Below are positions 6,518-27,508 of a stretch of DNA of 28,758 nt, one piece after another. Position 1 is the stretch's first letter, and each line of letters begins with the position of its first letter. Source of the DNA: Candidatus Acidiferrales bacterium (GTDB lineage: Bacteria; Acidobacteriota; Terriglobia; Acidiferrales; UBA7541); NCBI GenBank assembly GCA_030044295.1, contig JASHWB010000242.1, positions 1 through 28,758 of the forward strand, read 5' to 3'. Below the pieces are notes generated by a model. It did no database searches. It was not told where the DNA came from and saw nothing but the letters and a program-made list of their open reading frames with translations. The translations under genes were made by a program, and so were the position numbers.

Positions 6518-6552
6518 ATTTCATCCTTCCGAATTCGCGGTTCCGATCACTT
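6487..6552. repeat. 15-bp exact direct repeat CGGTTCCGATCACTT (6487-6501 and 6538-6552) across the wzx/wza junction
   Basis: Read directly from the sequence; period 51 bp. It encodes VIGT in both the Wzx C-terminus and the export-protein N-terminus. Confidence 0.8.
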
Positions 6553-13196: not shown

Positions 13197-13577
13197 CTGC
13201 CAGTGATTCGCTTCGAGGGTCAGACTTGCAAGCGGAATGCCGAATATCCTCCGGGTAATGGCCGCTGAGGAGAAACGTGTTACCGGTTTAGCCCCTCGGA
13301 AGCCCAGCTGAAACACTGGTTGATCGTGCTGATCTCTCCCGTAACGGAACTAGTTGGTCGGAAATATGGTTCGTTTTGAACCTCGCACGGCGCCTCACAC
13401 CTCGCATCAAAGAGCCCACCGAGGCCAGCAGTACCTTCGTTCCATCCGCCTGGCAGGAACGGCCTATACAATCCCGCACCCCAGTTCTTCAGAATTTTCA
13501 CTGAACAGGTGTGGCGCGAAGATCGAGAGTGGCCTGTCCATGTTCCGAGATAAAGCTTTCGTGCTCTGAGGGATCCC

Positions 13578-14411
13578 GTGTCGATGCCGTTGGTGGAAGT
13601 CCGCGATCTGTCGGTTAGTTATCACCTGAGCTCGGGTGATCCCTTTGCCGCAGTGCAGGGGGTCTCGTTTCATATCCGGCCGGGAGAAACTCTCGGACTC
13701 ATGGGCGAATCGGGCTGCGGCAAGAGCAGCATTGCCCTAGCGCTGATGCAACTCCTGCCAAAGCGCCAGGCGCGCGTTGCTGGGTCGGTCCTCTTTCGCG
13801 GCGCGAACATGCTCGCGCTTGGCGAGAGGGACCTTCAAACGATTCGCGGTGCGGCAATCTCTATCGTTTATCAGGAACCCGAGATCGCGCTCAGTCCGGT
13901 GATGCGCGTCGGTGATCAAGTAGCCGAAGTCATTCGGGCCCACCGTCCATTGCCGTGGCAACAGTGCCGCTCTTGTGCGCGCGACGTGATCGGCCGCGTG
14001 GGCTTCGCGCAAGTCGAGCGCATTTACAAAGCGTATCCCCATCAATTGAGCGGTGGCCAGCGCCAACGAATTTGCCTTGCCCAAGCCTTGGCTTGCGATC
14101 CCGCACTCCTGATAGCTGACGAGCCTACAGCCCATTTGGACGCCCGCAGCCAGTCGGAGCTTCTCGATGTGTTGCAATCGCTTAAGCGCGATTCTGGGCT
14201 TGCCGTACTTCTCATCAGCCACGCGCCCGAAGTTCAGGAGCGCATGGCAGAGCGCCTGCTTGTTATGAGTGCGGGCCACATCGTGGATCAGGGGCGCTTT
14301 GGCCAACTCGCTGGTAATTCGCACCACCCCTATACCCGCGCGGTTCTTGGTTCGGCGATGCTTCGCGACCGCTGGACCGACCGCGTACTTGAAGAGGCGC
14401 CTGCCGGATGA
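13578..14411 (+). CDS. Peptide/nickel (Opp/Dpp) ABC transporter ATP-binding subunit, OppD-like
   Basis: GESGCGKS, YPHQLSGGQRQR, LIADEPT and HPYT. GAGGGA RBS; GTG 13578 or ATG 13584. Confidence 0.93.
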   Translation: MSMPLVEVRDLSVSYHLSSGDPFAAVQGVSFHIRPGETLGLMGESGCGKSSIALALMQLLPKRQARVAGSVLFRGANMLALGERDLQTIRGAAISIVYQEPEIALSPVMRVGDQVAEVIRAHRPLPWQQCRSCARDVIGRVGFAQVERIYKAYPHQLSGGQRQRICLAQALACDPALLIADEPTAHLDARSQSELLDVLQSLKRDSGLAVLLISHAPEVQERMAERLLVMSAGHIVDQGRFGQLAGNSHHPYTRAVLGSAMLRDRWTDRVLEEAPAG

Positions 14412-15244
14412 CAACCCTCGCGCCGGACACACTCGTCTCTATTCGCGATCTCACCAAAACTTACGTCCAGAGGCGCGCGTTCAGCGGAACTCAATTCACG
14501 ATCGAGGCCCTTCGCGGGTTAAACCTGGAGATCCGCCGCGCCTCCACTCTTGCCCTCGTCGGCGAATCAGGCGCGGGAAAGTCAACGCTGGCGCGTTGCC
14601 TAGGCCTTTTGGAAAGGCCGTCTGCGGGCGAAATCTGGTTTGATCGTGTAAACGTTCTGGCTCTAGATCGCAGGCAGCTATTCCCCGTTCGGCGGCGCAT
14701 CCAGCTCGTTTTCCAGGACCCTGCGTCCGCGCTGAATTCTGGCATGACCGCTGCTGAAATTCTCGAAGAGCCGCTTCTCATCCAGTACGACTTGACGAAA
14801 GCTGAACGCCATCGGCGCGCACTGGATCTGCTGGACGAGGTCGAACTGCCGGCCTCGTCCGCTGAGAAACGCCCGCTCGATTTCAGCGGCGGACAGCGTC
14901 AGCGCCTGGCAATTGCGCGTGCGTTGATGCTCCGCCCCGAGCTCCTAATCCTCGATGAAGCTCTTTCGAATCTCGACCTTGCCACGCGCGATTCCATCGT
15001 AGATCTGCTCGACGCGCTACAAGCCGAGCAGGGGCTCACCTTGGTTCACGTCCTGCACGAGCTCCGCCTGGCGTCCCAACTCGCCTCCGATGTCGCAGTA
15101 ATGTTCGATGGGCAAATTGTCGAGCACGGAAGCGCGGACCGCCTGTTCTCCCGCCCAGAGCATCCCTGCACGCGTGCGCTCCTGCGAGGCTTTCGGAGCA
15201 GCCAGGAAGCGCCCGAAGCCATGCACGTCGAGGCGCTCGGATGA
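14408..15244 (+). CDS. Peptide ABC transporter ATP-binding subunit, OppF-like
   Basis: GESGAGKS, IQLVFQDP, FSGGQRQRLAIARAL, ILDEALSNLD and HPCT. ATGA overlap with the upstream gene. Confidence 0.93.
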   Translation: MTTLAPDTLVSIRDLTKTYVQRRAFSGTQFTIEALRGLNLEIRRASTLALVGESGAGKSTLARCLGLLERPSAGEIWFDRVNVLALDRRQLFPVRRRIQLVFQDPASALNSGMTAAEILEEPLLIQYDLTKAERHRRALDLLDEVELPASSAEKRPLDFSGGQRQRLAIARALMLRPELLILDEALSNLDLATRDSIVDLLDALQAEQGLTLVHVLHELRLASQLASDVAVMFDGQIVEHGSADRLFSRPEHPCTRALLRGFRSSQEAPEAMHVEALG

Positions 15245-16203
15245 AATTCCTCGGCCGGCGTTTACTCCATTCCGGTGTCATCCTGCTCGCGATTTCGTTT
15301 TTCGCTTTTCTCTTGCTCCGGTCCGCTCCCGGCGACTACTTCGATGCCATGCGCATGAACCCACGTGTTTCCGCGGAGACAGTCGAAAATCTCCGCGCGC
15401 AATACGGAATGAACCATTCTTTTCTAGTTCGCTATGCTGATTGGATGGGTTCTCTAGCCAAAGGCGACATGGGCATCTCTTTGGCCTATGGCACCCCTGT
15501 TGGCCCGCTGCTTTGGCCGCGCGCGCGCAACACACTTATGCTGACCGGTTCGGCGATGATTCTTTCATGGATGCTCGCGGTCCCTCTGGGAGTCTGGTCC
15601 GCTGCGGCGAAAGGTGGATGGCTTGATCGCATCTGTTCCTTATTCACTTCCACGCTGCTAGTGATTCCCGACCTTCTTGTTTTTTTGCTCCTGCTTCTGA
15701 TGGCCGTGCGTACCGGATGGCTTCCATCGGGAGGAATGACCTCCGGGAATTTCGCTGACTTGGCTGTATGGCAGAAAGCCGGTGACCTAGCGCTCCACTT
15801 TGCGTTGCCCGCCCTTGGTCTCGCAATCGTTTCGCTGCCGTTATTGCTGCGCCACGTGCGTTCAGCGATGGTTGAGGTTCTGGATTCACCCTTCATCCGC
15901 GCCGCACGAGGGCACGGCATTCCGCGGTCGCGTATCCTCTGGCGCTTTGCTCTTCCGGCCGCATCGAATCCGCTGATTTCGCTTTTTGGGCTGTCCATCG
16001 CCACCATGCTGAGCGCATCGCTGATTGTCGAAGTGATTCTCAGCTGGCCGGGACTGGGCCCCCTGATAATTCAGGCCATTTTGTCTCGCGATCTGAACGT
16101 CGTCATCGGCGTGGTTATGCTCTCATCTGTCTTTCTAATCGCCGGGAATTTGATTGCCGACGTGCTGCTGTTCGTTAGCGATCCGCGGATTCGAGTCGAA
16201 TGA
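15241..16203 (+). CDS. Peptide ABC transporter permease, OppB-like
   Basis: LRSAPGD, GDMGISL, EAA-loop region (PFIRAARGHGIPRSRILWRFAL), VEVILSWPGLG and ADVLLFVSDPRIR. ATGA overlap. Confidence 0.93.
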   Translation: MKFLGRRLLHSGVILLAISFFAFLLLRSAPGDYFDAMRMNPRVSAETVENLRAQYGMNHSFLVRYADWMGSLAKGDMGISLAYGTPVGPLLWPRARNTLMLTGSAMILSWMLAVPLGVWSAAAKGGWLDRICSLFTSTLLVIPDLLVFLLLLLMAVRTGWLPSGGMTSGNFADLAVWQKAGDLALHFALPALGLAIVSLPLLLRHVRSAMVEVLDSPFIRAARGHGIPRSRILWRFALPAASNPLISLFGLSIATMLSASLIVEVILSWPGLGPLIIQAILSRDLNVVIGVVMLSSVFLIAGNLIADVLLFVSDPRIRVE

Positions 16204-16204
16204 A

Positions 16205-17236
16205 ATGAATCGCCGCTACACATTTTGGGGTGTGGTTATCCTGCTCGCCGCTTTTCATCTCGTCATTCTGTCTGCTGGTTTCTTCTCTCCGTACAGCTAC
16301 TCGGAGCAGCATCGCGATTTGCCTTACGCCCCGCCGTCCCGAATTCACTTCATCGACTCACAAGGCCATTTTCACGTTCGCCCGTTCGTATACGGCTGGA
16401 AGTACGACGCCCACTCGCCTGGCTCATACGTCGCCGATCTGGCAACGCCCTATCCGGTTCACGTGTTCGCCTTCGGTTCGGCCTACAAAATCGCCGGTCT
16501 GATTCCTTCGCGCATTCACTTGTTCGGTGTAGACCCGCCTGGATCCATCTTCCTGATGGGCACGGACGGCTACGGCCGCGATCAATTCACGCGCTTCCTC
16601 TATGGCGGGCAGATTTCGCTGGCTGCCGGGCTGATTGCCGCGGCGCTATCGCTGGCCTTGGGGCTCGTCGTTGGCTCGATCGCGGGATTCTACGGCGGCT
16701 GGCTTGATAACGCGCTGATGCGCGGTGGCGATGTCTTTATGGCACTGCCGTGGCTCTATCTGCTGTTCGCGGTTCGCGCGGCGCTGCCTCTTCACGTGCC
16801 GCAAGGCCAGATTTTCTTGCTCATCGTCGCGGTGATTGGATTAATCGGCTGGGCCAGGCCCGCCCGCCTGATCCGAGGAGTGGTGCTAAGCGCGAAGGAG
16901 CGCAATTTCGTTCTGGCGGCGCGCGGCTTTGGGGCCTCCGATTTTCACCTCCTCCGCCGCCACATTCTGCCGCGCACCTACAACATCGTCCTCACTCAAA
17001 TGACGTTGCTCATTCCCCAGTACATACTTGCCGAAGTGACATTGAGCTTCCTCGGCCTCGGTATCGGTCAGCCGCTTCCGAGCTGGGGCAGCCTTTTGTC
17101 CGCGTTGCAGGAGTACTACGTTTTGGCTTCTTACTGGTGGATGTACTTGCCCGCCATCCTGTTAGTTCCTGTTTTTCTCGCTTATTCCCAAATCGCCAAT
17201 GCCTTGCAGGAACTCTTTTCACCCGTCGCGCTGTAA
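16205..17236 (+). CDS. Peptide ABC transporter permease, OppC-like
   Basis: MGTDGYGRDQFTRFLYGGQISL, WARPARLIRG, FVLAARGFGAS, RHILP, AEVTLSFLGLG and PSWG. Start refined to the ATG at 16205, 1 nt after the upstream stop. Confidence 0.93.
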   Translation: MNRRYTFWGVVILLAAFHLVILSAGFFSPYSYSEQHRDLPYAPPSRIHFIDSQGHFHVRPFVYGWKYDAHSPGSYVADLATPYPVHVFAFGSAYKIAGLIPSRIHLFGVDPPGSIFLMGTDGYGRDQFTRFLYGGQISLAAGLIAAALSLALGLVVGSIAGFYGGWLDNALMRGGDVFMALPWLYLLFAVRAALPLHVPQGQIFLLIVAVIGLIGWARPARLIRGVVLSAKERNFVLAARGFGASDFHLLRRHILPRTYNIVLTQMTLLIPQYILAEVTLSFLGLGIGQPLPSWGSLLSALQEYYVLASYWWMYLPAILLVPVFLAYSQIANALQELFSPVAL

Positions 17237-17266
17237 AACCATGCTCGGCTCTGTGACAATTTCGCC

Positions 17267-19006
17267 ATGCGCCCGATCGCGTTCTCACGCACCGCCGCGG
17301 CCGTTTGCGTGCTTTTAGCTGCCGCGGCGCTTTCGGTGCTGGCTCAGCCGGCGCAGAATGCCTCGCCCGCCCAGCAGGCAATTGGCAAGCGCGGCGGCAC
17401 TCTTACGGTCGCGCTCCGTTCCGAGCCCAAAACCCTCAATCCCGCTCTTGCCACTGACCAATCATCTCAGGACGTGATCTATTGCATGAACGCCGATCTG
17501 ATTCACATCAATCGCCTGTCCCAGCGAACCGAGCCCGACCTTGCCGAGTCCTGGACCGTCTCACGTGACGGCAAAGCGTACACGCTGCATCTCCGCCGGG
17601 GCTTGCGCTTTTCCGACGGCCAACCATTTACAGCCGACGACGTCGTTTTCAGCTTCCGCGTCTACCTTGACGATAAAGTCGGATCGCCTCAGCGCGATCT
17701 CTTAATCATTGGCGGAAAGCCACTCTCCGTCCAGAAGATCGACTCCTACACCGTGCGTTTCGTCCTCTCTCAACCGTATGCCGCTGCTGAGCGCCTGTTC
17801 GATGGCTTTCCCATTCTCCCGCGCCATTTGCTCGAAAGAGCATACCGTAGCGGCGACTTCTCGAAATCCTGGACGGTTTCGAGTGCGCCCAGCCAGCTCG
17901 CCGGAATGGGCCCTTTTCGTCTCGCTGAATACGTTCCTGGTCAGCGCATCGTCCTGGACCGCAATCCATACTACTGGAAACGTGACGGCGCCGGTCAGCA
18001 GCTGCCCTATCTTGATAAATTGGTTTTTCTCTTCGTGCCGAGCGAGGACGCACAGGTAATTCGTTTTCTGTCCGGCGATACGGACGTACTCAGCCGCTTC
18101 AGCTCCGAGAACTATTCGGTCCTCAAGGCCCAAGCGGCCGTCAAGCGTTTTCACCTGGACGATCTCGGCCCTAGCCTCGAATACAACTTTCTCTTCTTTA
18201 ATCTCAACGATTTGCGCGGCAAGAATCTTCCGCAGATCGCCGAGAAACAAAGCTGGTTTCGCGACCTTCCCTTCCGCCAGGCCGTCTCCCAGGCGATCGA
18301 CCGCACCGCTATCGTTCGCCTCGTCTATCAAGGTCGCGCGGCAGCCCTTGCCGCACAAGTGACCCCTGGAAACAAGCTCTGGCTAGATCCCGCGATTCAA
18401 CCCCCGGTTCAATCCATCGATCGCGCCCGGCAACTTCTCAAATCCGCCGGATTTTCGTGGCGTTCGGATGGCTCGCTCGTTGATTCGCGTGGAAAGTCCG
18501 TCGAATTTTCCATCCTTACCAGTTCCTCGAACGCGCAGCGCACCAAGATTGCCACTCTGATCCAAAGCGATCTGAGCGCGCTTGGAATGAATGTTCACGT
18601 TGTCTCGCTTGATTTCGGAGCCATGGTCGACCGCCTGCTCAATTCCTTCGACTACGAAGCCGCCATCATGGGCCTTGCGGATGGCGACGCCGATCCCAAC
18701 ACGGAAATGAATGTCTGGCTTTCCTCTGGTGGCATGCACATCTGGCACTTGAACGAAACCGGGCCGGCGAATCCTTGGGAGTCGGACCTCGATCATCTGA
18801 TGAACCAGCAACTCGTCACGCTCGATTACGCTAAGCGGCGCCGGCTATACGACCAGGTGCAGCAAATTGTGGCGCGGCAGCTGCCCATCATTTGCCTGGC
18901 CAGTCCGGACGTCCTCGTCGGCGCGAAAGATCGCGTCGGCAATTTCAGTCCGGCAATCCTCGAACCCTACGTGCTCTGGAACGTAGATCGAATCTATGGC
19001 CACTGA
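17267..19006 (+). CDS. Family 5 (OppA/DppA-like) ABC substrate-binding protein, Sec-exported with no lipobox
   Basis: Signal peptide ending LSVLA|Q. EPKTLNP, LAESWTVS, LRRGLRFSDGQPFTADDVVFS, GMGPFRL, RNPYYWK and FRQAVSQAIDR. Confidence 0.93.
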   Translation: MRPIAFSRTAAAVCVLLAAAALSVLAQPAQNASPAQQAIGKRGGTLTVALRSEPKTLNPALATDQSSQDVIYCMNADLIHINRLSQRTEPDLAESWTVSRDGKAYTLHLRRGLRFSDGQPFTADDVVFSFRVYLDDKVGSPQRDLLIIGGKPLSVQKIDSYTVRFVLSQPYAAAERLFDGFPILPRHLLERAYRSGDFSKSWTVSSAPSQLAGMGPFRLAEYVPGQRIVLDRNPYYWKRDGAGQQLPYLDKLVFLFVPSEDAQVIRFLSGDTDVLSRFSSENYSVLKAQAAVKRFHLDDLGPSLEYNFLFFNLNDLRGKNLPQIAEKQSWFRDLPFRQAVSQAIDRTAIVRLVYQGRAAALAAQVTPGNKLWLDPAIQPPVQSIDRARQLLKSAGFSWRSDGSLVDSRGKSVEFSILTSSSNAQRTKIATLIQSDLSALGMNVHVVSLDFGAMVDRLLNSFDYEAAIMGLADGDADPNTEMNVWLSSGGMHIWHLNETGPANPWESDLDHLMNQQLVTLDYAKRRRLYDQVQQIVARQLPIICLASPDVLVGAKDRVGNFSPAILEPYVLWNVDRIYGH

Positions 19007-19607
19007 GACGACTCTCGCTCCTGCTGAATCGCCGCAGCCAAAAAGCCTGCGAGACGACGCGGAGCTCGTTCGCGAGTGCCTCCGCGGCAACCAGGACGCC
19101 TGGTCCGCGGTCATCGAGAAATATAAAAATCTCATCTATTCCGTGCCCGTCAAATACGGCTTCTCGCCTGACGACGCGACCGACATTTTTCAGGCTGTCT
19201 GCCTCGAAATGCTTTCGGAACTCCCGAAGCTGCGCAAGCCGAAAGCGCTGCCGAAGTGGATCATCCAAGTTACCGTACACAAATGTTTTCACCACAAGCG
19301 CCAGCTTCTGCGCGTCAGCACCGCGGGATCGTCCGAAGATATGACCGAAAACGTGGTCGAGCGCAGCACATCTCCAGTTGCTGAGATGATCTTGCGCGAG
19401 GCCGAAGAAGAGCAGAGTTTCCGCAACGCGATCGCCAGCCTGGCTCCGCGCTGTCAACGCCTCATCCACATGCTCTTCTTTGAAGAACCCGCGCGTCCGT
19501 ACCAGGAAATCGCTGCTGAGCTTGGCTTGGCTCCAGGATCGATCGGCTTCATTCGTCAGCGTTGTCTGGATAAGCTGCGCACGAAACTGGAGCAGGCGGG
19601 TTTCTAG
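18996..19607 (+). CDS. ECF sigma-70 factor, resembling group ECF54
   Basis: Region 2 DAWSAVIEKYKNLIYSV...DATDIFQAVCL...ALPKWI; region 4 LAPRCQRLIHML...YQEIAAELGLAPGSIGFIRQRCLDKLR. The CQRL and GSIG..R.RCL.KLR signature plus the CHAT/subtilase neighbourhood match what I recall of ECF54; the group assignment needs an HMM check. Confidence 0.9.
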   Translation: MATETTLAPAESPQPKSLRDDAELVRECLRGNQDAWSAVIEKYKNLIYSVPVKYGFSPDDATDIFQAVCLEMLSELPKLRKPKALPKWIIQVTVHKCFHHKRQLLRVSTAGSSEDMTENVVERSTSPVAEMILREAEEEQSFRNAIASLAPRCQRLIHMLFFEEPARPYQEIAAELGLAPGSIGFIRQRCLDKLRTKLEQAGF

Positions 19608-22474
19608 TGGGCGCTGCCGCAAAAAAGAAGGCGATTTCTGCTGCCGTCTTGCGAAAGCTCGGATCGTTTACAGACGATGCCAGTCGCGAGCGCTATCTTA
19701 AAAGCCGCCCGGAACTTCTGCGGAAGGCTGCTGCTCTTCAGCTGAACGAACTCGTGCGCTCGAAGCTGCGCGCCGATACGCGTCAGGCTCTTTCCCTTGC
19801 CGAGTCCGCAATTGCCATCGCGCGGCGCGTCCGCAGCCGAGAGGCCTTGGCGCGGAGCCTTCGTTCGAAAGCAAATGCACTCTACATGCTCGGAGAAAAC
19901 AAAGGTGCGCTGGATTTTCACGCCGAGGCGCTGCGGATCTTCCGAGAGCTCGCCGACGGTCGCGAGCAGGCACGCACGCTGATCCCGACAATTCAGCCGC
20001 TGATCCTGCTGGGCGAATATCAACGCGCTTTCGATGTCGCGGCGGAAGCAAAACACATTCTGGAGCAGATCGGAGACGCGCAGCGCCTCGGCCATCTCGA
20101 AATCAACATAGGCAACATCTACCATCGCCAGGACCGTTTCGAGGAAGCTCTCGCGTGCTACGAGCGCTCTTACGAATCCCTGTTACCCTTCCGTGACTCG
20201 GAAGGCCTCGCCGTCGCCCTCTACAACATGGCCGTCTGCCTGATTTCGCTCAACGACTTTCCGCGCGCACTCGCCTCATATCAGCGCGCCCGCGAAATGT
20301 GCGTCCAGCATGGCATGACGCTTCTCGTCATTCAGGCGGACTACAACATCGCCTATCTCTACTATCTCCGCGGCGAATACAGCCGCGCCATTGAGATGTT
20401 GCGCGCCACACGGCAGAAATCCGAGGAAAATGGTGACGCACACATCCTCGCGCTTTGCTATCTCGATCTCTCGGACATTTATCTCGAACTCAATCTCAGC
20501 GCCGAAGCTCGCGAAGTCGCTCACGAAGGCTGGGAACGTTTCAGAAAGCTCGGAATGGGTTACGAAGAGGCGAAATGCCAGGCCAACGAAGCCATGGCGC
20601 TCAGCCAGCTCGGCAAAGCCATCCACGCTCTCGAGTTGTTCGATCGTGCGCGGGCCAAGTTTGTTCAAGAAAAGAATCTCGTCTGGCCTTGGCTGATCGA
20701 CTTATATCGCGCGCTGGTTCTGTTCAACGAAGGGCGCTATTTCGAGGCCCGCCGTTTTTGCGATCAGGCCGCAAAGTTCTTCGACACGTCGAATCTTCCT
20801 AACAAAGCTGTCTTATGCCATTTGCTGCTCGCCCGGCTGTCTTTTCGCACTGCCGACCTTTCGACGGCAAAAGATGAATGCGCGCGCGCTGGCGAGCGCC
20901 TTTCCGCGGTCGAAACTCCCTCCCTGCGCTTTCAAGCTGAATTTCTTGCTGGACAAGTTGCCGAAGCTTCCGGTTCGCTTCCCGATGCGTACCAGTCATT
21001 CCAGCGCGCCCGCGAAGCGCTCGAAACCCTTCGCAGCAGTCTTCATGGCGAAGAGCTGAAAATCTCGTTCATGAAGAATAGGCTCGAAGTATACGAATGC
21101 CTCGTCGACATCTGCACGAAGCGCCCGCAGACATCGGACGCGGCCGGAGAAACGTTCAGCTACATGGAAATGGCCAAATCGCGCAGCTTGGCGGAGCTCC
21201 TGGTTCACCACGCGCAGGCCTTGCCCGAGGCTCCGTCCGGACAGAGTGGTCTCGTTCGTAAAATTCGCGAAATGCGCGAGGAATTGAATTGGTATTATCG
21301 GCGGCTCGAAATCGAACAGTTGCAGACGGAAATGCCGTCTCCCGAACGCATCGAGGCATTGCGCCAAAAAGCAGCTGCTCATGAAACCAATCTTCTTCGC
21401 GCCCTTCGCGAGCTGCCTCAAGCAGAAATCGGCAGTCCAGACGTCGCGCCCGAGTCCATCCAGAGCATTCGTGGTGCGCTGTCCCAGGGAGCTGCTCTGA
21501 TCGAGTATTTCAGCGCGAAAGGCCATTTCCTGGCCGCCGTCCTCACGCATAGCTCGCTCGAAATCGTGCCTCTCACGCCGGTTTCGCGAATCGTTAGCCT
21601 GATGCGGATGCTGGAGTTCCAAATTTCAAAGTTCCGTCTCGGCGGCGACTACACACGCCAGTTTGAAAAGACGCTTTTGGAAGCCGCCCGGGCGCATCTC
21701 CGCAATCTCTTCGTCGAGATCTTCGCCCCATTACGCTCGCGGCTTTCTGCTGCGGATTTGATCGTCATTCCGCATGGCGTTCTGCACTACTTGCCGTTTC
21801 AGGCCTTGCTCGATGGGGATCGCTATCTGATCGACGATTTCTCGATCGCTTATGCGCCGAGTGCCGCAACATTCGCTCTTTGCCAGAGGAATTCCAGTGA
21901 ATGTGATGGCCCACCGCTCGTTCTGGGAATCCCTGACGCGCAAGCGCCGTTCATCGACGATGAAGTCCGGGCAATCGCCAAAATCTTACCCGGTGCCACC
22001 TTGCTGCTCGGACGCGAAGCCAACGAGGCGAACCTCCGTGCGCAAGGTCGCGGCAGCCGGGCGATTCACATCGCCACGCACGGTACGTTTCGTCAGGACA
22101 ATCCCATGTTTTCCAGCATTCGCCTCGGCGAAGGAAATCTGGCGTTGTACGACCTTTATCAGCTCAAGTTGGATTGTGAGTTGATGACCCTCAGCGGTTG
22201 CGCAACCGGCCTCAACGTCGTCACCGCCGGCGATGAACTTCTGGGCCTCGTTCGCGGTCTTCTTTTCGCCGGAGCTCGCTCGCTTTTGCTTTCGCTTTGG
22301 GACGTACACGATCGCACTACAGCGGACTTTATGACCGTCTTCTATGAACGGCTTGGTTCGGCGAGGTCTAAACCAACGGCGCTGCAACAAGCCATGATCG
22401 AGATGCGTGACCGCCACCCGCACCCTTACTTCTGGGCTCCGTTTACCCTCACTGGCAAGATCAGCGTCCCCTAA
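19607..22474 (+). CDS. TPR-CHAT protein: N-terminal TPR-like helical repeats plus C-terminal caspase-like CHAT protease domain
   Basis: 955 aa. Repeated TPR-like units (KANALYMLG..ALDFH; IGNIYHRQDRFEEALACYE; MAVCLISLNDFPRALASYQ; IAYLYYLRGEYSRAIE). CHAT motifs LIVIPHGVLHYLPF, IHIATHG (His825), LMTLSGC (Cys865), LSLWDVHD and HPYFWAPF. GTG overlaps the sigma stop by 1 nt. Confidence 0.93.
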   Translation: MGAAAKKKAISAAVLRKLGSFTDDASRERYLKSRPELLRKAAALQLNELVRSKLRADTRQALSLAESAIAIARRVRSREALARSLRSKANALYMLGENKGALDFHAEALRIFRELADGREQARTLIPTIQPLILLGEYQRAFDVAAEAKHILEQIGDAQRLGHLEINIGNIYHRQDRFEEALACYERSYESLLPFRDSEGLAVALYNMAVCLISLNDFPRALASYQRAREMCVQHGMTLLVIQADYNIAYLYYLRGEYSRAIEMLRATRQKSEENGDAHILALCYLDLSDIYLELNLSAEAREVAHEGWERFRKLGMGYEEAKCQANEAMALSQLGKAIHALELFDRARAKFVQEKNLVWPWLIDLYRALVLFNEGRYFEARRFCDQAAKFFDTSNLPNKAVLCHLLLARLSFRTADLSTAKDECARAGERLSAVETPSLRFQAEFLAGQVAEASGSLPDAYQSFQRAREALETLRSSLHGEELKISFMKNRLEVYECLVDICTKRPQTSDAAGETFSYMEMAKSRSLAELLVHHAQALPEAPSGQSGLVRKIREMREELNWYYRRLEIEQLQTEMPSPERIEALRQKAAAHETNLLRALRELPQAEIGSPDVAPESIQSIRGALSQGAALIEYFSAKGHFLAAVLTHSSLEIVPLTPVSRIVSLMRMLEFQISKFRLGGDYTRQFEKTLLEAARAHLRNLFVEIFAPLRSRLSAADLIVIPHGVLHYLPFQALLDGDRYLIDDFSIAYAPSAATFALCQRNSSECDGPPLVLGIPDAQAPFIDDEVRAIAKILPGATLLLGREANEANLRAQGRGSRAIHIATHGTFRQDNPMFSSIRLGEGNLALYDLYQLKLDCELMTLSGCATGLNVVTAGDELLGLVRGLLFAGARSLLLSLWDVHDRTTADFMTVFYERLGSARSKPTALQQAMIEMRDRHPHPYFWAPFTLTGKISVP

Positions 22475-22605
22475 CTCGCAACTAAAAATTCCGGGTTCTG
22501 GCTATATTTTTCGGTCGCCTACGTACCCTTATGGACAGGCGTGGATGGTAGGGGCAGGAGCGGCCTTTCTTGGATCGGCCGCAATTTATGGCATGGGGAG
22601 AGGAA

Positions 22606-23310
22606 ATGCGACATTTTTCGTCAGAGCGATGGGCAGGCTACGTTAGGAAGACATTGAAACCAAAGGACATGCAGGAAATGCAGGTTCACCTTCAAACGGG
22701 ATGTCGGGAGTGCGAAGCCGATCTAGCTGCTTGGATGCACATCAAAGAAATGGCCGCTCGTGAGAAGGCGTACCAGCCGCCAGCTGCGGCCGTGAAGATG
22801 GCCAAGGCGGCGTCGAAGCTCCACGGCGAACCTGCGCGACCATCAATTGCCAGACTCCTCTTCGACAGCTTTCACACACCGGTTGTCGCCGGTGTTCGCT
22901 CATCTCCCACCTCCGGCCAGCCCCGACAAGTGCTCTACGGGTTCGATAAGTATCGCGTGGACTTGCGCTTCGAGCCGAATTTCAACGCGGACGAGGTCCT
23001 CCTGGTTGGCCAAGTTTTGAACACTGCGGAATCCACCGAGAGTCTGGGACCAATCACGATTGCCTTAACGCGTGGTGGGCAAGTCCTCGGAACCGCGCGA
23101 ACCAACGAATTCGGCGAATTTCAGCTGGAATGCGATCTAGGCGGGCGCCTTGAGCTGCAACTTACGTTGCCAGGTGGTGCCACCGTGAAGATACCCATGG
23201 TTGAGCCTTCCGCCAGCCACGACGCCAAGGAACCCTCGCAACCCGCTGTTGCTAAAAGACTTGCTTCAAGGCTTAAGGCAAAGAAAAAAAGTACTAGGAA
23301 GAAGGTCTAG
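22606..23310 (+). CDS. Soluble putative anti-sigma factor: N-terminal zinc-binding (ZAS/zf-HC2-like) motif plus C-terminal carboxypeptidase-regulatory-like beta-sandwich
   Basis: GGAGAGG RBS before ATG 22606 (ORF track starts at 22570). H3-x24-H28-x4-C33-x2-C36 (HLQTGCREC). Linker LLFDSF..AGVRS; beta-rich RQVLY..VDLRF..LVGQV..TNEFGEF. No TM segment. Confidence 0.7.
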   Translation: MRHFSSERWAGYVRKTLKPKDMQEMQVHLQTGCRECEADLAAWMHIKEMAAREKAYQPPAAAVKMAKAASKLHGEPARPSIARLLFDSFHTPVVAGVRSSPTSGQPRQVLYGFDKYRVDLRFEPNFNADEVLLVGQVLNTAESTESLGPITIALTRGGQVLGTARTNEFGEFQLECDLGGRLELQLTLPGGATVKIPMVEPSASHDAKEPSQPAVAKRLASRLKAKKKSTRKKV

Positions 23311-23327
23311 TTCCAAGGAGCCTAAAA

Positions 23328-24809
23328 ATGGCCTCGCGTACCATGGAGAGAACAACTTCACCGAGCGATTCTCTCTCTTCATTTAGTTCACAAACGGGAA
23401 AGGGACCACTCGCGATTATGAAACGTCTTAGTTGCCTAATCGTTTTATTCCTTGCATTTACCGCTCGCCCCGTGAAAGCCCAGGGCCTGCTTGGCGGCCT
23501 GCTCGGAGGAGTCACTCAGACCCTTTCGAACACGGTGGGCGGCGTCACAAACCTTGTCGGTGATTTGCTCAGCCCTCCGCAGACCGTAATCGTCCAGACC
23601 ACCCTTGGTCTCTCGGGGTTGCAGCGCGAGTGCCAACTGAACGGCTGCACCGTCGTGCGAGGCCTGGATGGCGTGGAAGGCCAGGTGTTTCTCGTTCAGC
23701 CACAGCAGGGTCTGCTTCCAGATGTCCTTGCCGGTGTGCTGCGGCTCCTGACGGGTATTCTCGACGCCGAGCCGGATCAGCTCGTAATCATTCCGCCCAA
23801 CATCAGCTCTGGCGCGGTCCAGACCACAGTCCCGTCGAACTTATACCAAGAGACGCCCGTCAGCTACTATGGCAGCACCGTCTGGTACGGATACGCCTAT
23901 CAGCCCGCAGCGTCGATCATTCAGTCCGCTCAAGCGCAGAGAGCTTTCCACGTGACTGGCAACGCAATCGTCGCCGACATCGATACCGGCGTTGATCCCA
24001 ATCATCCGGCGCTGAAGCCGTTCTTGCTCACCGGATACAACTTCATAACCAATCAGCCTGGCGCTTCGGAATTGACTGACTTAAACGGTGCGACCGGCTC
24101 GGCCTGCAGTAGCTGCCAGGCCGCCTTCGTCGATCAGCACACTGCTGCAATGCTCGATCAGCACACTGCGGCGATGCTCGACGGATCCCAATATGCCGAT
24201 TTCGGACACGGCACGGAAGTTCTGGGAATGGTCCATCTGGTTGCTCCTACAGCCAAGCTGCTGCCCCTGAAGGCATTCAACTCCGACGGCAGCGGCGATC
24301 TCTCAAACATCCTGGCGGCGCTTTATTACGCCGTCCAGAATCACGCCAACGTCATCAATATGAGTTTTGAGCTTTCGTCCAGTTCGACCGCTCTGACCAA
24401 CGCGATCAACTACGCCAACGCTAACTCGGTGACTTTGGTCGCGTCTGCGGGCAACGACGGACAGGACGAAATGGTCTATCCGGCTGGCCTGTCGAACGTG
24501 ATCGGCGTCGCTTCAACGAATGATTACGACCAGCGGTCGAGCTTCTCGAACTACGGCGACCAGGTGGTTTGGGTTGCCGCGCCGGGCGAAAACGTCGTAA
24601 CAACGTATCCATTCGGCACGTATTCAGTGACGTCTGGCACGTCATTTACTTCGCCAATGGTTGCCGGCACAGCGGCGTTGCTGCTGAACCTCCAACCGAA
24701 CTTGAGTCCTTCTGCCGTAGCGAAGGCCATCTCGAACGCGCAGTGGATTGGACCCAATATGGGCTACGGCGAGCTCAACGTCGATTGGGCGCTCCAGTCG
24801 CTCTACTAG
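23328..24809 (+). CDS. Secreted S8 subtilisin-like serine protease (pre-pro form)
   Basis: Catalytic Asp in IDTG (23982), His in HGT (24207), oxyanion Asn in ASAGNDG, Ser in SGTSF (24642). Signal peptide MKRLSCLIVLFLAFTARPVKA from ATG 23418; the upstream ATG 23328 has an AAGGAG RBS. Confidence 0.93.
   Translation: MASRTMERTTSPSDSLSSFSSQTGKGPLAIMKRLSCLIVLFLAFTARPVKAQGLLGGLLGGVTQTLSNTVGGVTNLVGDLLSPPQTVIVQTTLGLSGLQRECQLNGCTVVRGLDGVEGQVFLVQPQQGLLPDVLAGVLRLLTGILDAEPDQLVIIPPNISSGAVQTTVPSNLYQETPVSYYGSTVWYGYAYQPAASIIQSAQAQRAFHVTGNAIVADIDTGVDPNHPALKPFLLTGYNFITNQPGASELTDLNGATGSACSSCQAAFVDQHTAAMLDQHTAAMLDGSQYADFGHGTEVLGMVHLVAPTAKLLPLKAFNSDGSGDLSNILAALYYAVQNHANVINMSFELSSSSTALTNAINYANANSVTLVASAGNDGQDEMVYPAGLSNVIGVASTNDYDQRSSFSNYGDQVVWVAAPGENVVTTYPFGTYSVTSGTSFTSPMVAGTAALLLNLQPNLSPSAVAKAISNAQWIGPNMGYGELNVDWALQSLY
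24132..24179 (+). repeat. In-frame 24-bp tandem repeat (2 copies) encoding DQHTAAML-DQHTAAML inside the S8 catalytic domain
   Basis: GATCAGCACACTGCTGCAATGCTC / GATCAGCACACTGCGGCGATGCTC: two differences, both synonymous Ala codons. Followed by a third Asp (GAC). Confidence 0.95.
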
Positions 24810-24824
24810 AAAAATAAGTTGACG

Positions 24825-25580
24825 ATGGGTACGATCGCACGCATCGCGGAGAAGGAACTCGGGACAGGTCGCCACGGCGATCTGTCCCTTCCTTTCGATT
24901 CGCCCTGGCGAGTCGCTGCTTCGCAATCCGGTTCCACTGACTCTGGCACCGCTCCTCTGCAACTGAAGGTGGCGCAAGAGGAAATCTCCGCCCTGCGCAC
25001 AGCCGTGGTTTGCTCGCTCAACCAGCTGCTCGACCTAAAAGACTTGAATACGGGCGTTCATAGCACGCGGCTGGCTGAATGGGCGCTTCATGTGGCGGGC
25101 GAAATTGGCCTCGACGAAACGGCGTTTCCAGACATCGAGGTCGCGGCGTTGCTTCACGACATCGGCAAGATTGGCATCCCGGATGCGATCCTAAACAAGC
25201 CAGGTCGCCTGACTGGCGACGAGTACGATCTGATGAAAAAACATCCGGAATACGGTTGGATCGTGCTGCGCAGCTTGCCGGGATTCGAGCGCGTCAGCCT
25301 GCTGATCCTGCACCACCACGAAAGTTTCGACGGCAAAGGCTATCCAGGCGGTTTGGCCGGTGACGAAATTCCCATGGGCTCGCGCATCGTCTCGGTCATC
25401 GACGCATTTGATGCCATGGTTTCGTCACGCCCCTACCGGCAAGGCCTGCCGCTCGAAGAAGCAACGCGCAGGCTGATCCAAGCGAGTGGGACGCAATTCG
25501 ATCCGCGCGTTGTGGAACGCTTCCTGCCGCTGGCGCAGGCCGAAATGCCATCCGTTCTCGCAGCCGTCGGCGCAGGGTAG
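24825..25580 (+). CDS. Stand-alone HD-GYP domain phosphodiesterase (cyclic dinucleotide, probably c-di-GMP)
   Basis: TGVHSTRL, LLHDIGKIGIPDAILNKPGRLT, KHPEYG, HHHESFDGKGYP, RIVSVIDAFDAM and RPYR. ATG 24825 (TTG 24819 in frame), 15 nt after the S8 stop. Confidence 0.92.
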   Translation: MGTIARIAEKELGTGRHGDLSLPFDSPWRVAASQSGSTDSGTAPLQLKVAQEEISALRTAVVCSLNQLLDLKDLNTGVHSTRLAEWALHVAGEIGLDETAFPDIEVAALLHDIGKIGIPDAILNKPGRLTGDEYDLMKKHPEYGWIVLRSLPGFERVSLLILHHHESFDGKGYPGGLAGDEIPMGSRIVSVIDAFDAMVSSRPYRQGLPLEEATRRLIQASGTQFDPRVVERFLPLAQAEMPSVLAAVGAG

Positions 25581-27430: not shown

Positions 27431-27508
27431 TGGTCGGGGCGAGTGGATTTGAACCACCGACCTCCTGGTCCCGAACCAGGCGCTCTAGCCAGGCTGAGCC
27501 ACGCCCCG
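27431..27508 (-). tRNA. tRNA-Pro (anticodon CGG)
   Basis: Minus strand CGGGGCG TG GCTC AGCCTGGCTA GAGC G CCTGG TTCGGGA CCAGG AGGTC GGTGG TTCAAAT CCACT CGCCCCG A CCA: full cloverleaf, C1:G72, A73 and encoded CCA. Confidence 0.98.

What the first reader, a model, noticed from the sequence alone, without database searches (positions are those of the whole stretch)
13578..25580. Candidate peptide-sensing proteolytic signalling system: Opp transporter + ECF sigma + TPR-CHAT + zinc anti-sigma + secreted subtilase + HD-GYP
Seen: ten co-directional genes, mostly overlapping or a few nt apart. They encode a complete peptide importer, an ECF sigma, a catalytically intact TPR-CHAT protease, a soluble zinc-finger anti-sigma-like protein, an exported S8 protease and an HD-GYP enzyme. 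Established: RRNPP receptors bind Opp-imported peptides through TPR domains, and in type III-E CRISPR the TPR-CHAT Csx29 cleaves Csx30, which sequesters an ECF sigma. An ECF/CHAT/small carboxypeptidase-like/subtilase neighbourhood is, from memory, the ECF54 context in Actinobacteria, with unresolved mechanism. Inference: the subtilase generates or processes an extracellular peptide, Opp imports it, the TPR array binds it and activates CHAT, CHAT cuts the anti-sigma, and sigma is released. This would be a quorum-sensing-like caspase cascade. I do not recall the Opp and HD-GYP additions being described with this module.
Basis: partly seen in the sequence, partly recalled or inferred. Interest (0 to 1): 0.9.

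Follow-up and report, generated by a model that had tools for sequence, protein, structure and literature searches.

The report
Peptide-linked protease-gated sigma factor operon
A soil acidobacterium carries a conserved ten-gene operon in which a peptide importer, a sigma factor, its hidden zinc-type inhibitor, a caspase-like protease, a secreted protease bearing repeated octapeptides and a c-di-GMP-degrading enzyme travel together. It most likely forms an untested peptide-triggered gene switch.

Summary
Ten co-directional genes at 13578-25580 encode a five-part Opp/Dpp-family ABC importer, an ECF sigma, a cytoplasmic TPR-CHAT protease with an invariant His/Cys dyad, a small soluble protein, a secreted S8 subtilase and an HD-GYP enzyme.

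The core (sigma, small protein, CHAT, S8) is the published but uncharacterised ECF54-type neighbourhood. I found it in Acidobacteriota, Chloroflexota and Actinomycetota.

New here:
- The small protein is a ZAS-like anti-sigma, supported by profile hits to RsiW, DdvA and RslA. The modelled sigma complex scores 0.80 against a best control of 0.27.
- The importer stays linked to the module across Terriglobia even when gene order is rearranged.
- A two-block promoter motif travels with the anti-sigma gene across three phyla. This makes anti-sigma, S8 and HD-GYP a sigma-dependent output unit.
- Only importer-linked S8 genes carry 2-5 octapeptide units (QHTAAML here). The units are identical in protein but diverged at synonymous sites.

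Genomic coupling and the anti-sigma assignment hold. CHAT cleavage, peptide release, import and sensing remain inferred.

This scan has flagged the cassette on other DNA many times, including this acidobacterial variant (e1-2854859).

The parts
13430..13470 (+). Clade-specific conserved element upstream of the first ABC gene: TAGTAC-N4-GTNCC, then CCTATAC about 20 nt later. It may be an operator or promoter of the sensor unit. It differs from the sigma-type motif.
   Evidence: Conserved in the closest Acidiferrales loci only. It is the only exact match of AGTACNNNNGNNCC in the window. The sigma-type motif is not enriched here.
13578..14411 (+). ABC ATPase 1 (OppD/NikD-like, 277 aa)
   Evidence: Pfam ABC_tran 3.2e-27. 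NCBIfam best hits are YejF, NikD and OppD, all below cut-off.
14408..15244 (+). ABC ATPase 2 (DppF/NikE-like, 278 aa)
   Evidence: Pfam ABC_tran 1.6e-30; NCBIfam.
15241..16203 (+). ABC permease B
   Evidence: BPD_transp_1 plus BPD_transp_1_N.
16205..17236 (+). ABC permease C
   Evidence: BPD_transp_1. The ATG is at 16205. Homologues are 342-343 aa.
17267..19006 (+). Periplasmic substrate-binding protein, family 5 (Opp/Dpp/App-like)
   Evidence: SBP_bac_5 1.5e-86. Signal peptide. Nearest solved relatives are Lmo0135, the nonapeptide binder AppA, HbpA and DppA. Of the ABC genes, it is the one most constantly next to sigma.
18996..19607 (+). ECF sigma factor (203 aa, regions 2 and 4 only)
   Evidence: Pfam r2 and r4. 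TIGR02937 at 73 bits, above its cut-off of 42.9.
19607..22474 (+). Cytoplasmic TPR-CHAT caspase-like protease (955 aa), dyad His825/Cys865
   Evidence: CHAT 2.9e-60. The dyad is invariant in 15 diverse homologues. The AF2 model has pLDDT 82.8. Best folds are separase, Csx29 and DdvA.
22500..22534 (+). Predicted sigma-dependent promoter: CTATATTTTT-N14-CCCTTAT, about 25 nt after the CHAT stop and 106 nt before the anti-sigma ATG
   Evidence: Present at a fixed position in about 28 of 30 loci with this gene order. It is the only strong hit in the whole 3.0-Mb assembly: 37 bits against 18.7 for the next. It has the same spacing as the GTATTTTT-N13-CNCTGTT motif in sigma-to-small gaps of three phyla. 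It follows the small gene in rearranged loci.
22606..23310 (+). Soluble two-domain anti-sigma candidate (234 aa). It has an N-terminal ZAS-like four-helix domain (His3, His28, Cys33, Cys36). A conserved flexible loop follows: LLFDS-x3-P-x3-G-x-R98-S. Then come a beta-sandwich and a basic tail.
   Evidence: Alignments. AF2. Profile hits to RsiW, DdvA and RslA anti-sigma domains. Modelled complex with sigma 0.80 against a best control of 0.27. The gene sits directly after sigma in the ancestral order.
23328..24809 (+). Secreted S8 subtilase (probable start 23418); triad Asp219, His294, Ser439 in ORF numbering
   Evidence: Peptidase_S8 1.1e-37. Signal peptide seen in the translation. Triad motifs located.
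24132..24179 (+). Two tandem octapeptide units, DQHTAAML twice, inserted just before the catalytic His of S8. This is the candidate embedded signal peptide.
   Evidence: TRF finds period 24, 2.2 copies. The two copies differ at 2 synonymous sites. Homologous, lineage-specific units occur in 41 of 45 SBP-linked loci. All 25 S8 genes from loci with small before CHAT and no SBP lack them.
24819..25580 (+). Stand-alone HD-GYP c-di-GMP phosphodiesterase-type protein (253 aa)
   Evidence: HD_5 3.2e-41. HD and GYP motifs present. It follows S8 in 27 of 44 loci with this gene order and in none of the 30 with the other order.

Best explanation
This is an ECF54-type, protease-gated ECF sigma switch. In class Terriglobia it has been coupled to a dedicated Opp/Dpp-family importer and to a subtilase that carries its own octapeptide cassettes.

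Proposed working:
1. The first transcription unit supplies the sensing parts: importer, sigma and cytoplasmic TPR-CHAT protease.
2. The small protein holds the sigma inactive through an N-terminal zinc-type anti-sigma domain clamped between sigma regions 2 and 4.
3. On a signal, CHAT cuts the anti-sigma in its conserved flexible loop, probably after the invariant Arg98, and the sigma is freed.
4. The sigma then reads the CTATATTTTT-N14-CCCTTAT promoter in front of the anti-sigma gene. This raises three products: the anti-sigma (negative feedback), the secreted S8 and the HD-GYP enzyme (lower c-di-GMP).
5. The most likely signal is an octapeptide (core QHTAAML) released outside the cell from the loop before the catalytic His of S8. 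It would be captured by the periplasmic binding protein, imported, and bound by the TPR array. That would close an autoinduction loop.

Shown by computation: gene content, conserved linkage, anti-sigma homology with a modelled sigma complex, the promoter motif and its positions, and selection on the repeats.

Inferred: cleavage by CHAT, the Arg98 site, peptide release, import, TPR binding and c-di-GMP output.
For: Gene content.

The block is a conserved unit with unrelated flanks:
- 6 of 6 metagenomic loci.
- Of 80 named species loci, 44 have CHAT before small. Of these, 39 include the SBP, 32 have all five ABC genes and 27 have HD-GYP. 29 loci are in the exact 9-gene order.

Linkage survives rearrangement:
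- L073 has the ABC genes after HD-GYP.
- L080 has CHAT-small-S8-ABC.
- L040 has small-S8-ABC-sigma.
- L086, L087 and L098 keep only SBP-sigma-CHAT.

Anti-sigma:
- His/Cys ligands are invariant, with spacing that I recall as ChrR-like plus one extra residue before the first Cys (from memory, not measured).
- The family profile hits RsiW (2.4e-6), DdvA (3e-4) and RslA (2e-3).
- AF2 gives a four-helix domain plus a beta-sandwich.
- ChrR-SigE is Foldseek rank 2.
- The modelled complex scores 0.80 against a best control of 0.27. That mark was reached by 51 of 78 solved complexes and 2 of 108 mismatched pairs. The interface lies on sigma regions 2 and 4.
- The gene lies directly after sigma in Chloroflexota, Actinomycetota and other Acidobacteriota.

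CHAT: the dyad is invariant and the fold is separase/Csx29/DdvA-like. The candidate site has an invariant Arg in a loop with pLDDT below 50.

Promoter:
- 32 of 44 sigma-to-small gaps score above all 200 shuffles in a leave-one-out test.
- 63 sites in 2.17 Mb against 2 in about 1 Mb of shuffled sequence. They cluster before small, before S8 and before secreted-protein genes.
- There is a single strong site in the own genome.
- The motif follows small in rearranged loci.

Peptide:
- Repeats occur in 41 of 45 SBP-linked loci. They are absent from 25 of 29 loci without an SBP.
- 75 within-gene pairs of identical 7-residue units differ at 269 nucleotides. Only 2 pairs are identical in DNA.
- SBP relatives include the nonapeptide binder AppA.
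Against: - There is no experimental or expression evidence. No RNA run was listed.
- A pass in the complex test may only reflect likeness to solved sigma/anti-sigma complexes.
- The zinc motif has one residue more than the canonical HxxxCxxC. Pfam zf-HC2 did not hit. The ligands are lost in Rubrobacter and Oscillochloris homologues.
- The ABC substrate is not established. The ATPases are short like NikD/NikE, and no equivalog cut-off is reached.
- The repeats sit inside the catalytic domain between Asp and His, so their release would cut the enzyme. They could instead be a structural or autoinhibitory loop.
- The same QHTAAML unit is shared by loci whose permeases are only 67% identical, so it is not a fine-scale pherotype.
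- A test of co-variation of the peptide with SBP or TPR was inconclusive, with only 11 independent pairs.
- Loci L076 and L100 have repeats but no importer within 10 kb.
- The counts across related genomes are not independent.
Confidence: 0.5

Rival explanations
1. Protein-feeding operon. The sigma/anti-sigma/CHAT switch responds to some intracellular cue such as starvation and turns on a secreted protease. The ABC importer simply takes up the resulting peptides as food. The repeats in S8 are a structural or autoinhibitory loop, and the importer has no signalling role.
For: - S8 and other secreted hydrolases (GH9 with CBM3, a lactonase-like protein, Calx-beta/DUF4214 proteins) lie behind the same promoter motif in loci without an importer. 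The regulon therefore looks like a secretome.
- The SBP belongs to a broad nutrient-uptake family.
- An earlier follow-up on other DNA read the core cassette as control of protein feeding (e1-967983; unchecked).
Against: - The importer genes are not behind the sigma motif but upstream with sigma and CHAT. That is the position of sensing parts, not of co-induced outputs.
- In some loci the SBP alone stays glued to sigma without permeases nearby: L086, L087, L098.
- The repeats co-occur with the importer and are kept identical by selection while synonymous sites diverge. A plain loop does not explain this.
Confidence: 0.25
2. The published ECF54 idea: there is no anti-sigma factor. The CHAT, subtilase or carboxypeptidase-like proteins keep the system off by degrading the sigma itself. 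The small protein is then an accessory or substrate adaptor.
For: The review PMC8999054 proposes proteolytic control without an anti-sigma for ECF54. Casas-Pastor et al. state that ECF54 has no putative anti-sigma.
Against: - The N-terminal domain of the small protein is homologous to solved anti-sigma domains.
- It is modelled between sigma regions 2 and 4 well above controls.
- It occupies the classic position right after sigma.
- S8 is exported, so it cannot meet a cytoplasmic sigma.
Confidence: 0.08
3. The binding protein, or the whole module, senses foreign proteolysis or another extracellular cue. The exposed repeats on S8 act as bait that competitors' proteases clip, so the imported fragments report enemy activity rather than own cell density.
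For: The repeats lie in what should be a surface loop next to the active site (inference from subtilisin architecture). The unit is shared over wide phylogenetic distance, which suits a generic reporter better than a private pheromone.
Against: Nothing distinguishes self-processing from foreign processing here. S8 keeps an intact triad, which makes self-processing the simpler reading.
Confidence: 0.07
4. A CRISPR-independent anti-phage (abortive-infection-like) module, analogous to Craspase or DdvA/DdvS, in which CHAT is triggered by infection.
For: The TPR-CHAT fold matches Csx29 and DdvA. Both known CHAT/anti-sigma systems are defence-linked (PMC10028731, PMC11506125).
Against: - There are no defence-family hits beyond a generic TPR and a subtilase (PADLOC).
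- There is no CRISPR or other RNA family in the window.
- Flanks are housekeeping and variable.
- The predicted regulon is secreted enzymes.
- The cassette is vertically conserved in a whole class.
Confidence: 0.04

Closest known systems
ECF54-type neighbourhood (Huang et al. 2015, J Bacteriol 197:2517, not readable here; Casas-Pastor et al. 2021, PMC7826278; review PMC8999054)
   Same: An ECF sigma sits next to a carboxypeptidase-regulatory-like protein, a CHAT protein and a subtilase. I recovered the same four genes in order in 9 of 9 actinobacterial loci and in Chloroflexota and Acidobacteriota.
   Different: The literature reports no anti-sigma and proposes degradation of the sigma. Here the carboxypeptidase-like protein carries a ZAS-like anti-sigma domain. 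In this window the gene order is sigma-CHAT-small-S8. A five-gene importer and an HD-GYP gene are attached, and S8 carries octapeptide repeats. The organism is an acidobacterium, not an actinobacterium.
Type III-E Craspase: Cas7-11 / Csx29 (TPR-CHAT) / Csx30 / CASP-sigma (PMC10028731, PMC9825189)
   Same: A TPR-CHAT protease is paired with a protein that holds an ECF-type sigma. Proteolysis releases the sigma. The fold match is E about 5e-12.
   Different: There is no Cas7-11, crRNA or CRISPR array. The Csx29 NCBIfam model scores 31 bits against a cut-off of 300. Activation cannot be RNA-guided. The substrate candidate is a ZAS plus beta-sandwich protein, not Csx30.
DdvA/DdvS of Myxococcus xanthus (PMC11506125)
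   Same: A zinc-type anti-sigma domain and a TPR-CHAT module act in one ECF pathway. The family profile hits the DdvA N-terminal domain (3e-4) and the CHAT model hits DdvA (6.6e-12).
   Different: DdvA is one transmembrane protein with a periplasmic TPR-CHAT that lacks three helices. Here CHAT and the anti-sigma are separate soluble cytoplasmic proteins, and no RseP step is implied.
RRNPP peptide quorum sensing of Firmicutes (Rap/NprR/PlcR/PrgX with Opp import); from general knowledge
   Same: The proposed logic is the same. A secreted, processed oligopeptide is re-imported by an Opp-type transporter and read in the cytoplasm by a TPR protein.
   Different: The TPR is fused to a caspase-like protease, not to an HTH or a phosphatase. 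The peptide is not a small pro-peptide gene but cassettes inside a subtilase. The host is a diderm acidobacterium. Similarity to RapJ is only generic (E 3.3e-4).
Separase-securin (eukaryotes)
   Same: These are the best structural matches of the TPR-CHAT model (E 4e-13). As I recall it, separase is an Arg-specific clan CD protease held by a pseudo-substrate partner.
   Different: There is no sequence-level relationship beyond the fold, and the biology differs.

Membership tests
ECF54-type ECF sigma module | ECF sigma with regions 2 and 4 only | tested here: met
   Pfam r2 and r4; TIGR02937 above cut-off.
ECF54-type ECF sigma module | Conserved neighbourhood of a CHAT protein, a carboxypeptidase-regulatory-like protein and a subtilase | tested here: met
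   The same cassette is in Actinomycetota, 9 of 9 loci. The published description is in PMC8999054.
ECF54-type ECF sigma module | Placement of the sigma in the ECF54 clade by the ECF Hub models | not testable with these tools
   No ECF Hub HMMs are available. Huang 2015 and the supplements are not held.
ECF54-type ECF sigma module | No anti-sigma factor in the context (as published) | tested here: not met
   The small protein has an anti-sigma domain. This revises the family description rather than excluding membership.
ZAS (zinc-binding anti-sigma) domain proteins | N-terminal helical anti-sigma domain homologous to known ones | tested here: met
   The profile hits RsiW 2.4e-6, DdvA 3e-4 and RslA 2e-3. 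AF2 gives four helices at residues 5-71.
ZAS (zinc-binding anti-sigma) domain proteins | H-x3-C-x2-C motif with an upstream His or Cys ligand | tested here: inconclusive
   Here the pattern is His3...His28-x4-Cys33-x2-Cys36, one residue longer. Relatives mix x3 and x4. Pfam zf-HC2 did not hit. Zinc binding cannot be tested here.
ZAS (zinc-binding anti-sigma) domain proteins | Binds its sigma between regions 2 and 4 | tested here: inconclusive
   In silico only. The score is 0.80 against a best control of 0.27, with the interface on sigma residues 28-73 and 138-203. This supports binding but does not show it.
Type III-E Craspase | Cas7-11 effector and a CRISPR array next to the TPR-CHAT gene | tested here: not met
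   There is no such gene among the ORFs and no CRISPR RNA family. The Csx29 model scores 31 bits against a cut-off of 300.
DdvA-type anti-sigma | One polypeptide: ZAS domain, transmembrane helix and periplasmic TPR-CHAT | tested here: not met
   The ZAS and TPR-CHAT parts are separate genes. Neither has a signal peptide or a hydrophobic helix.
RRNPP receptors | TPR peptide receptor fused to an HTH or phosphatase effector, with a cognate small pro-peptide gene | tested here: not met
   The TPR is fused to CHAT. There is no small pro-peptide gene; the candidate peptide is inside S8. The resemblance is functional only.
Opp/Dpp/Nik (PepT, SBP family 5) ABC importers | Two ATPases, two permeases and one family-5 binding protein | tested here: met
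Opp/Dpp/Nik (PepT, SBP family 5) ABC importers | Oligopeptide substrate | tested here: inconclusive
   No equivalog cut-off is reached. The nearest solved relatives are peptide binders, with nickel binders weaker. The ATPases lack the usual C-terminal extension (277 and 278 aa).
HD-GYP phosphodiesterases | HD_5 domain with HD and GYP motifs | tested here: met
   HD_5 3.2e-41. HD is at residue 113 and GYP at 174. Activity was not tested.
S8 subtilases | Asp/His/Ser triad in order | tested here: met
   The DTG, HGT and GTS motifs are at residues 219, 294 and 437-439. Pfam 1.1e-37.

The most novel reading that the evidence does not exclude
This would be a peptide autoinduction (quorum-sensing-like) circuit of diderm soil Acidobacteria. 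The pheromone is encoded as 2-5 identical octapeptide cassettes inside the catalytic domain of a secreted subtilase. A dedicated Opp-type transporter re-imports it, and the TPR array of a caspase-like CHAT protease reads it. CHAT then cleaves a zinc-type anti-sigma at an invariant Arg to free an ECF sigma. The sigma drives the pheromone precursor (positive feedback), its own inhibitor (negative feedback) and an HD-GYP enzyme that lowers c-di-GMP.
Probability: 0.3. Interest if true: 0.92.

Novelty: new variant of a known kind. Interest (0 to 1): 0.8.

Why it matters
ECF54-type sigma factors are listed in the field's own classification as having no known regulator. This work gives a concrete, testable model for them: a hidden anti-sigma, a candidate cleavage loop, a promoter motif and a predicted regulon.

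The Terriglobia variant adds an importer and selected peptide cassettes. If the model holds, it would be the first caspase-like protease used as a peptide receptor. It would also be a peptide-based signalling system in Acidobacteria, a dominant but poorly understood soil phylum. It would directly link extracellular proteolysis, ECF sigma control and c-di-GMP.

All parts are small enough to reconstitute in E. coli.

Tried and rejected
- The search for related loci with the small-protein alignment failed because it had no conserved 7-10-column stretch. I used the genome search and the CHAT alignment instead.
- Huang et al. 2015 and the supplements of Casas-Pastor et al. are not held. The ECF54 context therefore rests on the review PMC8999054.
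- No RNA-seq run holds the locus, so co-transcription is untested. The DNA holders are peat and soil metagenomes.
- The sigma-70 promoter and terminator scan was uninformative: 0 promoters, and terminators at chance level.
- The idea that the region upstream of the first ABC gene carries the same sigma motif was tested and rejected. Scores equalled those of shuffles.
- I considered a sigma-54 reading of that upstream element by eye and dropped it, because the GG/GC spacing does not fit.
- My first motif search converged on the conserved 3' coding end of sigma. I redid it on trimmed gaps. A few gaps were over-trimmed, so 32 of 44 is a lower bound.
- Foldseek of the small-protein model gave no hit at E <= 1e-3. 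The anti-sigma assignment rests on the sequence profile and the complex model.
- Co-variation of peptide type with SBP or TPR identity gave only 11 independent pairs and is confounded with overall divergence, so it was inconclusive.
- PADLOC and Rfam gave nothing that supports a defence system or an RNA element.
- The count of 43 of 401 Actinomycetota genomes includes the unpublished genome G491, which has only a partial N-terminal hit. No claim here rests on it.

Full report
**1. Observation**

The window has GC 0.54-0.62. By its closest relatives it comes from an uncultured member of Candidatus Acidiferrales/Acidoferrum (Acidobacteriota, class Terriglobia). The DNA is held in peat metagenomes.

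Ten co-directional ORFs fill 13578-25580. Pfam and NCBIfam give:
- two ABC ATPases;
- two permeases;
- a family-5 substrate-binding protein;
- an ECF sigma;
- a TPR-CHAT protein;
- a small protein with only a sub-threshold CarboxypepD_reg hit;
- an S8 subtilase;
- an HD-GYP protein.

The binding protein and S8 have Sec signal peptides. Sigma, CHAT and the small protein have none.

Flanks are unrelated: an exopolysaccharide cluster on the other strand upstream and an MFS transporter downstream.

**2. The core is a known but uncharacterised cassette**

The review PMC8999054 states that ECF54 sigma factors have carboxypeptidase, subtilase and CHAT proteins in their context, and that proteolysis without an anti-sigma has been proposed. 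Casas-Pastor et al. say ECF54 has no putative anti-sigma.

Using a profile of the small protein and then of the CHAT protein, I found the order sigma, small, CHAT, S8 in:
- other Acidobacteriota (Blastocatellia, Pyrinomonadaceae);
- Chloroflexota;
- an Eiseniibacteriota MAG;
- Rubrobacter taiwanensis;
- 9 of 9 further loci fetched from Actinomycetota.

I could not run the ECF Hub models, so clade membership of the sigma is not formally tested.

**3. The small protein is an anti-sigma factor**

Homologues (365 hits, all annotated as hypothetical) share several features (native numbering):
- His3, His28, Cys33 and Cys36;
- a loop LLFDS-x3-P-x3-G-x-Arg98-Ser;
- a beta-sandwich.

Across 26 sequences from several phyla, Arg98 is invariant and the zinc ligands are nearly so.

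AF2 gives four helices, a strand, a low-confidence loop containing Arg98, a beta-sandwich and a disordered basic tail.

A profile of the family hits solved anti-sigma domains by sequence: RsiW 2.4e-6, DdvA 3e-4, RslA 2e-3. ChrR-SigE is the second Foldseek match, at a weak E of 1.9e-3.

The modelled complex of the sigma with residues 2-103 scores 0.80 in three runs, against a best control of 0.27. That mark was reached by 51 of 78 solved complexes and 2 of 108 mismatched pairs. Contacts lie on sigma regions 2 and 4. This supports binding but does not show it, and it may partly reflect memory of solved sigma/anti-sigma pairs.

In the widespread gene order, the small gene lies directly after sigma, the classic position.

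**4. The protease**

His825 and Cys865 are invariant in 15 homologues down to 30% identity. The AF2 model (pLDDT 82.8) has about eleven TPR pairs, a helical linker and the CHAT fold. Its best structural matches are separase, Csx29 and DdvA.

That CHAT cuts the anti-sigma at the Arg98 loop is inference. It rests on three things: the strict co-occurrence of the two genes, the conserved but flexible loop, and the Arg/Lys/Asp preference of many clan CD proteases (established knowledge).

**5. The importer belongs to the module in Terriglobia**

Six of six metagenomic loci of small-protein homologues (40-60% identity) show the same ten genes with different flanks on both sides.

Among 80 named species-level loci:
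- 44 have CHAT before small. Of these, 39 contain the binding protein, 32 have all five ABC genes, 43 have S8 and 27 have HD-GYP.
- 29 are in the exact nine-gene order, and 22 of them add HD-GYP.
- The five without an importer comprise three cut contigs and two loci outside Terriglobia.

The linkage survives rearrangement:
- L073: ABC genes after HD-GYP.
- L080: ABC genes after S8.
- L040: small-S8-ABC-sigma.
- L086, L087, L098: the binding-protein gene alone stays fixed upstream of sigma.
- L106: permeases divergent.

The 30 loci with small before CHAT have no HD-GYP, and only two have a distant binding-protein gene on the other strand.

The substrate is not established. The nearest solved relatives are peptide binders, including the nonapeptide binder AppA. 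But no equivalog threshold is reached, and the ATPases are as short as NikD/NikE.

**6. A promoter motif defines the output unit**

About 25 nt after the CHAT stop, and 106 nt before the anti-sigma ATG, lies CTATATTTTT-N14-CCCTTAT (22500-22534). It is found at the same place in about 28 of 30 loci with this gene order.

It is the only strong match in the 3.0-Mb assembly, which is 73% complete: 37 bits against 18.7 for the next.

In loci with the other gene order, the sigma-to-small gap carries GATGTATTTTT-N13-C(A/T)CTGTT with the same spacing. Leave-one-out scores exceed all 200 shuffles in 32 of 44 gaps.

A scan of all these loci gives 63 sites in 2.17 Mb, against 2 in about 1 Mb of shuffled sequence. 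The sites lie before the small gene, before S8, after S8 and divergently upstream of sigma. The genes behind the extra sites encode secreted proteins: GH9 with CBM3, Calx-beta/DUF4214, a lactonase-like protein and DUF7467.

In rearranged loci the motif stays 60-110 nt upstream of the small gene.

I read this as the sigma's own target promoter. In the window it makes anti-sigma, S8 and HD-GYP a sigma-dependent unit. The importer, sigma and CHAT sit behind a different upstream region that lacks the motif and carries a clade-specific element.

**7. The subtilase carries selected octapeptide cassettes**

Importer-linked genes have an interval of 73-99 residues with 2-5 units of the form x-Q-[HSRE]-[TS]-x-x-x-[LVI]. 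Examples:
- QHTAAML here;
- QSTAAVL, QSSAAIL and QRTVAVL;
- QSTAAVV, four copies;
- QSTTSIL, five copies;
- QETTPIL, five copies.

Genes from the 25 loci with small before CHAT and no binding-protein gene have 39-66 residues and no repeat.

Repeats occur in 41 of 45 loci with the binding protein and are absent in 25 of 29 without it. Related genomes are not independent, so the Fisher value is not a probability.

Within genes, 75 non-redundant pairs of identical seven-residue units differ at 269 nucleotides, about 3.6 per 21. Only two pairs are identical in DNA. Identity is therefore kept by selection on the peptide, not by recent duplication or conversion. In the window the array is 24132-24179.

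This is what a multi-copy signal precursor would look like, and it appears only where an Opp-type importer is attached.

Caveats:
- The cassettes lie inside the catalytic domain.
- The same unit is shared by fairly distant loci.
- Release has not been shown.

**8. Mechanism and rivals**

The best-supported model is a protease-gated ECF switch with a ZAS-like anti-sigma. In Terriglobia it is coupled to import of an S8-derived octapeptide that activates CHAT through its TPR array, with positive feedback through S8 and negative feedback through the anti-sigma, and with c-di-GMP hydrolysis as an added output in a subclade.

My estimates for the individual steps:
- anti-sigma function: about 0.85;
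- CHAT cleavage of the anti-sigma: about 0.55;
- the peptide loop: about 0.35.

The main rival is a nutritional reading, in which the importer only feeds on protease products. The position of the importer genes outside the sigma-dependent unit and the selected repeats argue against it, but it is not excluded. Degradation of the sigma itself, a bait function of the repeats, and an anti-phage role are less likely.

**9. Comparison and novelty**

The system works like Craspase and DdvA/DdvS in using a TPR-CHAT protease with an anti-sigma and an ECF sigma. It works like RRNPP systems in using Opp import and a TPR reader. It fails the defining features of all three families (see the membership table).

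It fits the ECF54-type context, whose published description (no anti-sigma) it revises. I found no paper describing the importer, the peptide cassettes or HD-GYP with this module. [quoted passage not shown]

This scan has noted the cassette 102 times in at least 95 genomes, including the acidobacterial variant. Those notes were leads that I tested here, not evidence.

Verdict: a new variant of a known kind, with interest 0.8.

Noticed in passing
window 13430-13470: Upstream of the first ABC gene, the closest Acidiferrales loci share TAGTAC-N4-GTAC(C/T)(A)GTAAC-like half-sites followed by (C/G)CTATCGAC (CCTATAC in the window). It looks like an operator or a promoter for another regulator. It is absent in more distant loci with the same operon.
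   Followed up: partly
window 23284-23307: The anti-sigma candidate ends in a disordered basic tail...KKSTRKKV. The tail is conserved in Acidiferrales homologues but missing in all distant relatives. Its function is unknown; it could be a degron, or bind membrane or DNA.
   Followed up: no
L105:15694, L056:4305(-), L057:8697, L124:14977, L133:15030: In loci without the importer, the same promoter motif precedes genes for secreted proteins: a GH9 cellulase with CBM3, Calx-beta/DUF4214 proteins and a lactonase-like beta-propeller. The sigma's regulon there looks like a small secretome.
   Followed up: partly
G291 (several contigs; L044, L047, L048, L050, L051, L053, L054): One acidobacterial genome has seven matches to the small-protein profile. 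Most of the fetched stretches show a paralogous module nearby (sigma, CHAT and sometimes S8); L048 shows only the small gene.
   Followed up: no
L069, L089, L063, L091: Loci with the full acidobacterial operon (CHAT 46-66% identical to the window's) sit in MAGs labelled Methylomirabilota, Verrucomicrobiia, Candidatus Aquilonibacter and Candidatus Cybelea. Either the contigs were mis-binned or the operon moved horizontally.
   Followed up: no
L039:7599-9420, L082:12835-14680, L086:12730-18350: Some Terriglobia loci have extra genes inserted between CHAT and the anti-sigma gene. In L039 and L082 the insert is preceded by a further copy of the promoter motif (none was found in L086). In L039 the insert begins like a response-regulator receiver domain.
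   Followed up: no
3' end of the sigma genes in L041-L161 (the equivalent in the window is about 19540-19600): The last part of sigma region 4 (...GSIGPTRARCL...) is so conserved at the DNA level across phyla that a motif search locked onto it.
   Followed up: no
window 4079-13316 (- strand): An exopolysaccharide biosynthesis and export cluster is transcribed divergently from the operon. It includes Poly_export/SLBB, GT2 and GT4 glycosyltransferases and a Wzz/GNVR chain-length determinant. It is not conserved next to the operon elsewhere.
   Followed up: partly
window 27434-27508 (- strand): A tRNA gene (Rfam RF00005, 63.5 bits) overlaps long mechanical ORFs on both strands, which are therefore not genes.
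   Followed up: no
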